Part shown: positions 36,486-37,440 of the stretch, piece by piece | How positions within the stretch are numbered: the first letter of the stretch is position 1 | Layout of the letters: each line of letters opens with the position of its first letter | From: a virus | Lineage: Duplodnaviria > Heunggongvirae > Uroviricota > Caudoviricetes | Strand: one strand, 5' to 3' | IMG/VR virus record: IMGVR_UViG_2541047705_000012 | Length of the DNA stretch: 37,440 nucleotides | The notes under the pieces: model-generated | Database searches by the model: none | What the model saw: only the letters and a program-made list of their open reading frames with translations | Told to the model about the DNA's origin: nothing | Position numbers and translations under genes: made by a program

Positions 36486-37103
36486 TTATTTTAAGTCATT
36501 ATGCCAATCGTCTACTGTTTGAAACCAAATTTTTAACCTTTGCATAAAGGTACGATCCTTTTTGGGAGGGTGGTACCTTTGAAAAGAAGTATGTAACGCT
36601 TCGATAACTCCCATACAAGCATCAATTACTTCTTGTGCTTTAACCGGGCGATCGGCATCTGAAAGCTTGTGAGCGACCTCACAATCCAGAGTTGCTTTCT
36701 CTAGTACAGATGAGAACACCTCGTCAGGTATATACAGTCCTCTGCTTTCCAAAATGCAAATCAGTTTGGAAACTTGTTGAGCTTTAGCCAAGATAGTTAA
36801 CAAGTATGAAACAGAAGCCTTTGTTCTATCCTTTTGCAACCTTAACAATCGATGCTTTGATGCTCTAATTTTAGGTTGAGTTGTCTGACTGAGCCAATAG
36901 TTAGAAGAAATATCAGAAATTTCAATAACTAACTTTGAAATAGCATCAATAATTGATTTCGATTCAGAACGTGTCGCCAGTTTTACAGAATTATTGTACG
37001 CAACTCGCCATCCAATGAAAACTAAGCAGACGCTAACTACTGTGATACACCACGAATACTGTCCTATTTGTGCTACTAATGACATTGGTTCCGTACTGAT
37101 CAA
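36486..37103 (-). CDS. Hypothetical protein with N-terminal transmembrane anchor
   Basis: 205-aa ORF with a TTG start (AAGAGG 6 nt upstream), 10 nt after the upstream stop; convergent with and overlapping the integrase 3-prime end by 9 nt. Confidence 0.4.
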   Translation of the reverse strand: MISTEPMSLVAQIGQYSWCITVVSVCLVFIGWRVAYNNSVKLATRSESKSIIDAISKLVIEISDISSNYWLSQTTQPKIRASKHRLLRLQKDRTKASVSYLLTILAKAQQVSKLICILESRGLYIPDEVFSSVLEKATLDCEVAHKLSDADRPVKAQEVIDACMGVIEALHTSFQRYHPPKKDRTFMQRLKIWFQTVDDWHNDLK

Positions 37104-37113
37104 CTATCGCCTC

Positions 37114-37440
37114 TTATACTCTTTCTGGTTGTGCTAAATCAATAAATTTATCAATCTGTTCTTTGTAGAACGGAACATCACTTTTTATAATCAAACGTGC
37201 TTTAACGTTGGCTTTAGGTATCCCTTCCTTACGGATGAGACCTCCAAACGCCTCTTCTAAGAAAGAGGAACCAACACCCAGTGCTATACCGCGAAAATCA
37301 ACCACAATCTCCTGTTCAGTACCCTTCAGCGCAGGCACCAAAAACTCTCTACGAAATCTTTCCGCACTGTGTGGGCTATCCGTTGTGTAACGTCCGAAAG
37401 GTGTTCTGGAGAACTCCTTCGCTATGACGATATTTCTCAT
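37114..37440 (-). CDS. STAS-like small protein (recalled as DUF4325 family); its ATG coincides with the last three bases of the window
   Basis: 108-aa ORF with the V.DFRG.....SSF..E.FG.L pattern remembered for DUF4325; the operon may continue beyond the window. Confidence 0.4.
   Translation of the reverse strand: MRNIVIAKEFSRTPFGRYTTDSPHSAERFRREFLVPALKGTEQEIVVDFRGIALGVGSSFLEEAFGGLIRKEGIPKANVKARLIIKSDVPFYKEQIDKFIDLAQPERV

What the first reader, a model, noticed from the sequence alone, without database searches (positions are those of the whole stretch)
36486..37440. Two-gene operon (STAS-like protein plus membrane-anchored protein) abutting the integrase 3-prime end and cut by the window edge
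Immediately beyond the integrase stop, on the opposite strand and overlapping it by 9 bp, are a ~108-aa STAS-like protein (recalled as DUF4325) and, 10 nt downstream, a 205-aa protein with an N-terminal transmembrane helix and a TTG start with a good ribosome-binding site. The ATG of the first gene is the last codon of the window, so the operon may continue beyond it, possibly with an ATPase or kinase partner. Integrase-adjacent positions are known hotspots for defence or accessory cargo, and the region is lower in GC than the backbone.
Basis: partly seen in the sequence, partly recalled or inferred. Interest (0 to 1): 0.55.

Follow-up and report, generated by a model that had tools for sequence, protein, structure and literature searches.

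The report
Prophage kinase–STAS–membrane protein cassette
The two genes at the window edge are the last two genes of a conserved three-gene prophage cargo cassette (a SpoIIAB-like kinase, a small STAS protein and a membrane-anchored helical protein) that resembles the recently described VapKSC anti-phage switch but carries a membrane protein in place of the nuclease; its function is unproven.

Summary
Window 37114-37440(-) encodes a 108-aa DUF4325 STAS-like protein (Pfam E 6e-14). Window 36486-37103(-) encodes a 205-aa single-pass membrane protein whose 3' end overlaps the integrase stop by 9 bp. GC is 0.40 against 0.51 for the window.

In UTI89-type E. coli a 303-aa gene ends 4 nt upstream of the STAS gene; it encodes an N-terminal STAS domain plus a SpoIIAB/RsbW-type GHKL kinase. 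The triad lies inside an ssrA-integrated prophage, between int and the distal att repeat. In related prophages this slot carries other cargo.

The same triad occurs at other cargo positions in other prophages. The STAS subfamily was found at at least 535 loci in a species-representative genome collection spanning many phyla.

The closest known system is VapKSC (EMBO J 2026): kinase, DUF4325 antitoxin and PIN toxin. Here the third gene is a membrane-anchored four-helix-bundle protein instead.

My best model is a phospho-switch that releases a membrane effector. It is unproven. The identical operon ("VPUS") was predicted defensive by DefensePredictor but gave no protection against 24 phages.

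Verdict: a new variant of a known kind, of moderate interest.

The parts
37114..37440 (-). Gene S: a 108-aa single-domain STAS-like protein (DUF4325). It is the middle gene of the triad, and its ATG is the last codon of the window.
   Evidence: ORF. Pfam PF14213 at E 6.2e-14. 151 homologues, nearly all ~100-128 aa stand-alone proteins (a few are shorter fragments). VapS of VapKSC belongs to the same Pfam family, E 2.7e-17.
37231..37272 (-). Motif G57-S58-S59-F-L-E-E-A-F-G-G-L-I-R70 of S, containing the putative phospho-acceptor Ser58.
   Evidence: G57, S59 and F60-L68 are invariant, and S58 is Ser or Thr, in 23 diverse homologues. hhalign places VapS Ser48, the experimentally defined phospho-site, opposite S58 (PMC13373217). 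Read directly from the sequence.
36486..37103 (-). Gene C: a 205-aa membrane-anchored all-helical protein with a TTG start (199 aa from the ATG at 37085 in RefSeq). It is the last gene of the triad.
36999..37055 (-). Predicted transmembrane helix of C (residues ~17-35). It is followed by the conserved juxtamembrane segment KLATRSESKS..D.
   Evidence: Kyte-Doolittle 19-residue mean of 1.81. Part of a long helix spanning residues 9-73 in the model. There are 0 Lys/Arg before the helix and 3 in the 20 residues after it, which suggests an N-out/C-in orientation. Core conserved across phyla: GW..R..RKExR..D.
37104..37116 (-). S-C junction: the TAA stop of S, a Shine-Dalgarno AAGAGG overlapping it, and a 6-nt spacer before the TTG of C.
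   Evidence: Read from the sequence. The S and C genes are tightly spaced in all homologous loci examined.
36486..36494 (.). 9-bp overlap between the 3' ends of the convergent genes C and int.
35478..36494 (+). Context: the C-terminal part of the prophage tyrosine integrase. The N-terminal part is at 34009-34167.
   Evidence: Pfam Phage_integrase at E 1.9e-16 and Arm-DNA-bind_2. The integrase is intact in UTI89, L001 10923-12095.
34168..35477 (-). Context: a 1310-bp IS3-family insertion sequence that splits the integrase gene.
   Evidence: orfA and orfB ORFs. Boundaries and the 3-bp flank overlap come from BLAST against L016. RefSeq annotation: 'IS3 family transposase, programmed frameshift'.

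Best explanation
The finding is the 3' two-thirds of a three-gene prophage cargo cassette. I call the genes K, S and C.

- **K** lies just beyond the window (UTI89 WP_000154254.1, 303 aa). It has an N-terminal STAS-like domain fused to a SpoIIAB/RsbW-type GHKL serine kinase.
- **S** (window 37114-37440) is a stand-alone DUF4325 STAS protein with an invariant G-[ST]-S-FLEEAFGGL motif.
- **C** (window 36486-37103) is a single-pass inner-membrane protein with a cytoplasmic four-helix bundle.

Proposed mechanism, by analogy with VapKSC and CapKS:
1. In the resting lysogen, unphosphorylated S binds the cytoplasmic domain of C and keeps it inert.
2. An infection- or damage-associated cue activates K. 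For CapK the cue is single-stranded DNA, and the same is proposed for VapK.
3. K phosphorylates S on Ser58.
4. Phospho-S lets go of C.
5. Free C acts at the inner membrane, either by self-association and permeabilisation (growth arrest) or by blocking phage DNA entry. Either way a superinfecting phage is limited.

Shown here: gene order, domain architecture, conserved catalytic and acceptor residues, membrane anchoring, a mobile and variable cargo location, and a wide distribution of the triad as a unit.

Inferred only: phosphorylation of S by K, S-C binding, the activating cue, toxicity of C, and an anti-phage outcome.
For: **Operon structure.**
- K ends 4 nt before S, and S ends 10 nt before C.

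**K.**
- The GHKL motifs are invariant: E155xxxN159, D201xGxG205, R242G..G245, G292T293.
- Weak Pfam HATPase_c_2 match, E 9e-5.
- AlphaFold2 model: pLDDT 86, pTM 0.88.
- This is the same architecture as VapK. hhalign against VapK gives E 3.6e-6 and 2.3e-4 over the GHKL domain.

**S.**
- Same Pfam family as VapS.
- The S/T at position 58 aligns with VapS Ser48.

**C.**
- Transmembrane helix plus helical bundle, with no enzymatic fold.

**The triad travels as a unit.**
- Citrobacter: next to a different integrase.
- Yersinia ruckeri: between the antiterminator gene and the lysis genes.
- Also seen in Acinetobacter, Photobacterium, a Rhodospirillaceae island and a prophage encoding a CI repressor.
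- The genome-collection scan (one genome per species, GTDB) found at least 535 loci. Among the best 80, 69 of 70 upstream ORFs are K-like, 57 of 79 downstream ORFs are C-like, and none is VapC-like.

**Location.**
- The triad lies inside the ssrA element, between int and the distal att repeat.
- GC is 0.40-0.41 against 0.51 for the window.
- The slot is variable across the 412 E. coli genomes that carry this integrase. One of them holds an AAA ATPase plus a methyltransferase matching PD-Lambda-5_B at E 5e-124.

**Independent prediction.**
- DefensePredictor scored this exact operon as defensive, log-odds 5.75.

**Precedent.**
- Phosphorylation of a STAS protein by a GHKL kinase was shown for CapS. 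A phospho-mimic mutation released VapS from its toxin, and VapKSC protected against phage Bas42.
Against: - **Negative published test.** The identical three proteins (WP_000154254.1, WP_001244589.1, WP_000060412.1; working name 'VPUS') were cloned on a low-copy plasmid in E. coli MG1655; the paper describes cloning with the predicted native promoter region. They were challenged with 24 phages and are recorded as 'defensive FALSE'.
- **Weak sequence link to VapK and VapS.** hhalign probabilities are 44-88% for K and 43% for S. Only the GHKL half of K aligns, so the ssDNA-binding residues (CapK W68, VapK F54) cannot be mapped.
- **No evidence that C is toxic.** It has one transmembrane helix and a generic helical bundle. 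It could equally be an anchor or a sensor.
- **No database support.** There is no PADLOC hit for any of the three proteins.
- **Promoter.** The promoter-like site upstream of K is no better than chance.
- **Fast evolution of C.** C evolves faster than K and S (21-41% identity, against 24-59% for K and 43-70% for S). This fits an arms-race component, but it also fits weak constraint.
Confidence: 0.45

Rival explanations
1. C is not an effector. It is a membrane anchor or sensor, and K-S is a partner-switching signalling module whose output lies elsewhere, in a host or prophage regulator. The triad would report envelope or infection stress rather than kill the cell. The kinase might also sequester an unlinked target, as anti-sigma factors do.
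For: K's closest structural relatives are anti-sigma factor kinases of partner-switching systems: SpoIIAB, RsbW, UsfX and SiaB. C's bundle resembles the four-helix sensor domains of histidine kinases and chemoreceptors, although it also resembles many unrelated helical bundles. No toxicity or defence phenotype was seen for the cloned operon.
Against: The operon and slot contain no sigma factor, no PP2C phosphatase and no DNA-binding domain. S has no HTH domain, unlike CapS. The triad moves between very different genomes as a self-contained three-gene unit, which argues against dependence on a host-specific partner. C's helical domain is predicted to be cytoplasmic, not periplasmic.
Confidence: 0.2
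2. The cassette serves the prophage's own life cycle rather than host defence. Possibilities include tuning lysis timing or holin function, excluding closely related phages at the membrane, or coupling DNA damage to prophage behaviour.
For: In Yersinia ruckeri prophages the triad sits directly between the late-gene antiterminator and the holin-endolysin cassette. It is found in prophages and integrative islands. C is a small membrane protein, as holins, antiholins and superinfection-exclusion proteins are (established knowledge). CapK is activated by DNA-damage products, the same cue that induces prophages.
Against: The position within prophages is not conserved. It is next to int and convergent with it in E. 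coli, Citrobacter and Salmonella, and near the lysis genes in Yersinia. The triad also occurs where the ~6-kb flanks show no phage genes, in Acinetobacter and Photobacterium. In the source strain the prophage integrase is destroyed by an insertion sequence while the cassette is intact.
Confidence: 0.15
3. It is a selfish addiction (toxin-antitoxin-like) module that merely stabilises the element that carries it, or a decaying hitch-hiker with no current function.
For: VapKSC behaves as a toxin-antitoxin pair. The published defence test was negative. One E. coli genome carries an IS3-family element inside the operon.
Against: All three ORFs are intact and 99-100% identical in 126 complete genomes that carry the whole operon (129 records match at >=99%). 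The catalytic and acceptor motifs are invariant across 23-30 diverse homologues, and the triad is maintained across phyla, which indicates purifying selection.
Confidence: 0.12

Closest known systems
VapKSC (VapK kinase / VapS STAS antitoxin / VapC PIN toxin), Chambers et al., EMBO J 2026, PMC13373217
   Same: - Three-gene operon in the same order.
- The first gene encodes a STAS plus GHKL kinase of ~300 aa.
- The second gene encodes a ~110-aa DUF4325 STAS protein with a conserved Ser/Thr at the position of VapS Ser48 and a short C-terminal helix.
- Found in mobile or variable regions.
   Different: - The third gene is a membrane-anchored helical-bundle protein, not a PIN nuclease. No VapC-like ORF follows this S subfamily in any of 79 loci.
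- K and S are only remotely similar in sequence to VapK and VapS.
- Protection was shown for VapKSC (phage Bas42) but not for this operon.
CapK-CapS transcriptional regulators of immune operons (same paper)
   Same: A GHKL kinase carrying a STAS domain in cis, paired with a STAS-domain substrate that has a conserved 'SSF' acceptor motif (CapS ...TDSSFP..., here ...GSSFL...).
   Different: - K has no N-terminal HTH domain.
- S has no C-terminal winged-helix domain, so it cannot act as a repressor in the same way.
- The pair is followed by one small membrane-protein gene, not by a CBASS, Bub or Thoeris operon.
Classical partner-switching modules: SpoIIAB-SpoIIAA, RsbW-RsbV, SiaB-SiaC
   Different: There is no sigma factor, no PP2C phosphatase and no diguanylate cyclase output. 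The kinase carries its own STAS domain. The cassette is prophage cargo.
DefensePredictor candidate 'VPUS' (Science 2026, PMC13092281, Table S6)
   Same: It is this very operon: WP_000060412.1, WP_001244589.1 and WP_000154254.1, taken from a strain in that study's E. coli set (assembly GCF_003333565.1).
   Different: It was only predicted (log-odds 5.75, category 'structural defense homolog') and tested. No protection was seen against 24 phages, it received no DS name, and no mechanism or link to VapKSC was proposed.

Membership tests
Pfam PF14213 DUF4325 (STAS-like) | Score above Pfam's gathering threshold against the family HMM | tested here: met
   51.9 bits against a cut-off of 23, E 6.2e-14, residues 25-87.
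VapKSC | First gene encodes a kinase with STAS and GHKL domains | tested here: met
VapKSC | Second gene encodes a small STAS protein with an absolutely conserved Ser/Thr phospho-acceptor | tested here: met
   VapS is itself DUF4325, E 2.7e-17. S58 is Ser or Thr and S59 is invariant in 23 homologues. VapS Ser48 aligns with S58 (low-probability alignment).
VapKSC | Third gene encodes a VapC-like PIN-domain nuclease toxin | tested here: not met
   C has no Pfam hit. Its model is a transmembrane helix plus a four-helix bundle. phmmer with VapC finds nothing among 79 downstream ORFs of this S subfamily.
VapKSC | S neutralises the toxicity of the third protein, and phospho-mimic S does not | not testable with these tools
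   Needs growth assays.
VapKSC | The operon protects against phage | not testable with these tools
   Not tested here. The literature records this exact operon as 'defensive FALSE' against 24 phages in MG1655.
CapK-CapS regulators | CapK has an N-terminal HTH domain before its STAS and GHKL domains | tested here: not met
   The K model starts with the alpha/beta STAS domain at residue 2, and K is only 303 aa. No HTH family appears in Pfam.
CapK-CapS regulators | CapS carries a C-terminal winged-helix DNA-binding domain | tested here: not met
   S is 108 aa with a single DUF4325 domain. CapS is ~182 aa.
CapK-CapS regulators | Encoded immediately upstream of an immune operon that it regulates | tested here: not met
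   It is followed only by gene C and then by the convergent int.
Anti-sigma partner-switching (SpoIIAB/SpoIIAA type) | SpoIIAB-type kinase fold with a STAS partner | tested here: met
Anti-sigma partner-switching (SpoIIAB/SpoIIAA type) | Cognate sigma factor and PP2C phosphatase in the module | tested here: not met
   None is annotated in the slot or in the homologous loci examined.
Catalogued anti-phage systems (PADLOC-DB v2.0.0) | HMM match to a component of a known or candidate defence system | tested here: not met
   Zero hits at E<=1 for K, S and C.

The most novel reading that the evidence does not exclude
The K-S-C triad is a distinct, ancient and widespread family. It was found at at least 535 loci in the species-representative genome collection, across Proteobacteria, Verrucomicrobiota, Bacteroidota, Nitrospirota, Actinomycetota and candidate phyla. 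In this reading a GHKL kinase and a DUF4325 STAS antitoxin gate a new type of single-pass membrane effector. It would be a genuine anti-phage or abortive-infection system that the one published screen missed, because of its phage panel, host strain or expression level.
Probability: 0.35. Interest if true: 0.65.

Novelty: new variant of a known kind. Interest (0 to 1): 0.5.

Why it matters
- **A swappable control module.** If the model is right, the kinase-STAS phospho-switch just described for CapKS and VapKSC is not tied to one toxin. It would be a control module that also gates a membrane-acting effector, with a much wider phylogenetic reach than the 289 vapKSC loci reported.
- **Possible function for uncharacterised families.** The model would assign a role to part of DUF4325 and to two protein families with no annotation (phrog_3364 and phrog_30059).
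- **ExPEC relevance.** The cassette sits in a prophage shared by UTI89, S88, APEC O1 and other B2-phylogroup ExPEC strains. It could affect which phages can be used against them.
- **A concrete test.** The negative published screen turns this into a sharp, testable case: either a false negative of plaque screening or a false positive of machine-learning prediction.

Tried and rejected
- **Family databases.** PADLOC and NCBIfam scans of all three proteins gave nothing useful.
- **PDB sequence searches.** Searches with S and with the K and C profiles returned only an RsbW N-box match (E 0.027). The VapS and CapS chains were not retrieved.
- **Pfam on 22 C homologues.** Only weak DUF2247 matches in 7 members, best E 0.002, below any threshold.
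- **Isolated phage genomes.** tblastn of K against 50,697 phage records gave no match.
- **tRNA as the att site.** No tRNA is present in the window or in L001. The att is the 3' end of ssrA.
- **Ser-rich motif in C as a second phospho-site.** I considered TRSESKS and rejected it. Outside Enterobacterales the motif reads R(E)..RKExR, so the serines are not conserved.
- **APEC E19019 as the source strain.** Rejected, because its insertion sequence sits about 440 nt further into int.
- **Rfam scan of the K-upstream and att region.** No hits.
- **Per-phage plating data for 'VPUS'.** I looked in the DefensePredictor supplement and found nothing.
- **Mapping the ssDNA-binding residues of CapK and VapK onto K.** Not possible, because the N-terminal halves do not align.

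Full report
**1. Observation**

- ORF 37114-37440(-) encodes 108 aa. Its ATG is the last codon of the window.
- ORF 36486-37103(-) encodes 205 aa from a TTG start. A Shine-Dalgarno AAGAGG lies 6 nt upstream of the TTG.
- The two genes are 10 nt apart. The second overlaps the stop of the convergent integrase (36494) by 9 bp.
- The first protein matches Pfam DUF4325 (STAS-like) at E 6.2e-14, well above threshold.
- The second has no Pfam, PADLOC or NCBIfam match. It does have a hydrophobic segment at residues ~17-35 with a Kyte-Doolittle mean of 1.81.
- GC is 0.40 in the finding region against 0.51 for the window.
- RefSeq starts the second gene at the ATG at 37085, giving 199 aa. Homologues support the longer form.

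**2. Source and what lies beyond the window**

The last kilobase of the window is 100% identical to 125 or more complete E. coli genomes of the UTI89, S88, APEC O1 and IHE3034 type. In UTI89 a third gene, which I call K (L001 13046-13957, 303 aa, annotated as hypothetical), ends 4 nt before the ATG of the STAS gene. The unit is therefore a three-gene operon, K-S-C, and the window cuts it after S.

**3. Inside or outside the prophage**

There is no tRNA in the region. The element is integrated at ssrA. The 3' end of ssrA plus its terminator (~190 nt) is repeated at 91% identity about 150 nt upstream of K, and roughly 43 kb of phage genes lie between the two copies. The operon is therefore cargo inside the element, between int and the distal att repeat. 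About 500 nt further on come the host genes glaH/csiD.

In the window the integrase is split by a 1310-bp IS3-family element (34168-35477). The cassette itself is intact.

**4. The three proteins**

*K.*
- Weak Pfam HATPase_c_2 match, E 9e-5.
- All Bergerat-fold (GHKL ATP-binding) motifs are invariant in 30 homologues: ExxxN, DxGxG, RG.G and GT.
- A confident AlphaFold2 model: pLDDT 86, pTM 0.88.

*S.*
- A bare STAS domain.
- 23 diverse homologues share an invariant G-x-S-FLEEAFGGL-x-R motif, and residue 58 is always Ser or Thr.

*C.*
- Predicted to be all-helical (pLDDT 80). One long helix contains the transmembrane segment, followed by a four-helix bundle.
- Structure searches return only generic helical bundles.
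- The charge distribution suggests the bundle is cytoplasmic.
- A profile search of 1.84 billion representative proteins finds 153 clusters. All but one are small proteins and none carries an added enzymatic domain. The transmembrane and juxtamembrane region is the conserved core.

**5. The triad is a conserved mobile unit**

The same K-S-C order is found in the following places.

| Host | Context |
|---|---|
| Citrobacter | Prophages, next to an unrelated integrase |
| Yersinia ruckeri | Prophages, between the late antiterminator and the holin-endolysin genes |
| Acinetobacter | Chromosomal locus near a PvuRts1I/SRA-type gene |
| Photobacterium | Chromosomal locus |
| Rhodospirillaceae | A small integrative island |
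| Salmonella / E. coli | A 52%-identical allele in the same ssrA prophage slot |
| Unnamed source (metagenome and sequencing-run assemblies) | Next to a phage CI repressor, reached through a distant C homologue |

A scan of one genome per species (the GTDB-based genome collection) for the SFLEEAFG motif found at least 535 confirmed loci in many phyla. Among the best 80 loci:
- 69 of 70 upstream ORFs match the K profile.
- 57 of 79 downstream ORFs match the C profile.
- None resembles VapC.

Conservation runs S > K > C. Identity to the window or UTI89 proteins is 43-70% for S, 24-59% for K and 21-41% for C.

**6. The slot is variable**

The integrase type is present in 412 of 5,426 E. coli genomes, but the DNA after its stop differs among them.

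| Strain | Cargo downstream of int |
|---|---|
| NWU_4 | AAA ATPase plus a methyltransferase matching PADLOC PD-Lambda-5_B (E 5e-124) |
| 2011C-4315 | A ParA-like protein plus two hypothetical proteins |
| p4A | A single hypothetical gene |
| ET300 | A single hypothetical gene |

This is the behaviour of an accessory or defence hotspot. The K-S-C operon itself occurs in 140 of 5,426 genomes: 129 records at 99% identity or more, and 11 at 60-80%.

**7. Comparison with what is known**

*VapKSC and CapKS.* Chambers et al. (EMBO J 2026, PMC13373217) described two related systems.
- CapK (HTH-STAS-GHKL kinase) and CapS (STAS-wHTH repressor).
- VapKSC: VapK (STAS-GHKL), VapS (a STAS protein with a C-terminal helix, phospho-site Ser48) and the PIN toxin VapC. 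VapKSC protects against phage Bas42.

I extracted VapS, VapC and VapK from the paper's deposited files and compared them with the window proteins.
- VapS is a DUF4325 protein, E 2.7e-17.
- VapS aligns with the S profile so that Ser48 falls opposite S58.
- VapK aligns with the K profile over the GHKL domain only, E 3.6e-6 and 2.3e-4.
- VapC is a PIN protein. C is not.

The cassette therefore shares the architecture and the likely logic of VapKSC, but it fails the defining third-gene feature. It is a sister arrangement, not a member. It is not CapKS either, because neither K nor S has a DNA-binding domain. It also lacks the sigma factor and phosphatase of classical partner-switching modules.

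*DefensePredictor.* The DefensePredictor study (Science 2026, PMC13092281) lists exactly these three proteins as transcription unit 'VPUS'.
- Log-odds 5.75, category 'structural defense homolog', chosen deliberately rather than at random.
- It was tested on a low-copy plasmid in MG1655 against 24 phages; the paper describes cloning units with their predicted native promoter regions.
- It is recorded as not defensive and received no DS name.
- The authors note that some negatives may be false, owing to the phage panel, expression level or unit boundaries.

**8. Mechanism**

My best-supported model (confidence ~0.45) is a phospho-switch:
1. S holds the cytoplasmic bundle of C inactive.
2. A cue linked to infection or DNA damage activates K.
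3. K phosphorylates S at Ser58.
4. C is released and acts at the inner membrane, by permeabilisation or by blocking DNA entry.

The architecture, conserved residues, membrane anchoring, mobility and hotspot location are shown here. The phosphorylation, the S-C interaction, the cue, the toxicity of C and any anti-phage effect are inferred.

The rivals are:
- C as an anchor or sensor for a signalling module with an unlinked output (0.2).
- A role in the prophage's own lysis, exclusion or induction (0.15).
- A purely selfish or decaying module (0.12).

**9. Verdict**

It is a new variant of a recently described kind of system. The operon has already been flagged by others as a candidate, but no mechanism was proposed and its only experimental test was negative. 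Interest is moderate (0.5). It would be higher if toxicity of C and its control by S and K were demonstrated.

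Noticed in passing
window 34168-35477 (integrase parts at 34009-34167 and 35478-36494): A 1310-bp IS3-family insertion sequence (orfA 35097-35423, orfB 34210-35100, minus strand) splits the prophage integrase after about 53 codons, with a 3-bp flank overlap (target-site duplication). From memory, its size and OrfA sequence look like IS629/IS1203. No complete E. coli genome in the collection has the insertion at this exact position; APEC E19019 has it about 440 nt further into int. 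The prophage probably cannot excise using its own integrase.
   Followed up: partly
L002 15005-15215 and L001 14095-14300 (UTI89; outside the window): The ssrA-integrated element is bounded by a ~190-nt direct repeat at 91% identity. The repeat comprises the 3' end of ssrA plus its terminator hairpin, with a 5-nt deletion (TCCAC) in the distal copy. This is longer than a typical att core.
   Followed up: partly
L002 15624-16412 (UTI89; the ssrA-proximal end of the same element, outside the window): The first gene after ssrA, WP_000183405.1, is listed in DefensePredictor Table S6 as 'RED2' = DS-24, an experimentally validated defence gene. GIY-YIG (LEM-3-like) and DUF262 genes lie nearby. Both ends of this prophage carry defence-type cargo.
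   Followed up: partly
L021 5570-8282; L022 5559-6338; L023 5771-7693; L024 5562-6359 (related E. coli prophages): The slot downstream of this integrase type holds different cargo in different strains: an AAA ATPase plus a methyltransferase matching PD-Lambda-5_B, a ParA-like protein plus two hypothetical proteins, or single hypothetical genes of 259 and 265 aa with no PADLOC hit. These last are untested candidates.
   Followed up: partly
H71, NZ_CP070045.1 3042904-3046110 (E. coli FDAARGOS_1303): In one genome the K-S-C operon itself is interrupted by an IS3-family element (the match is split into two pieces, with a transposase under it).
   Followed up: no
L016 402-1615 (APEC E19019), equivalent to a junction at window ~30357: APEC E19019 carries a second copy of the same IS3-family element in the early region of this prophage, where the window has none. 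These B2-phylogroup prophages are accumulating IS insertions.
   Followed up: no
phrog_5816 match to window 37114-37440: The S protein matches only positions 341-439 of a 441-position PHROG profile. This suggests that in some phages the DUF4325 domain is fused to the C-terminus of a larger protein, possibly a K-S fusion.
   Followed up: no
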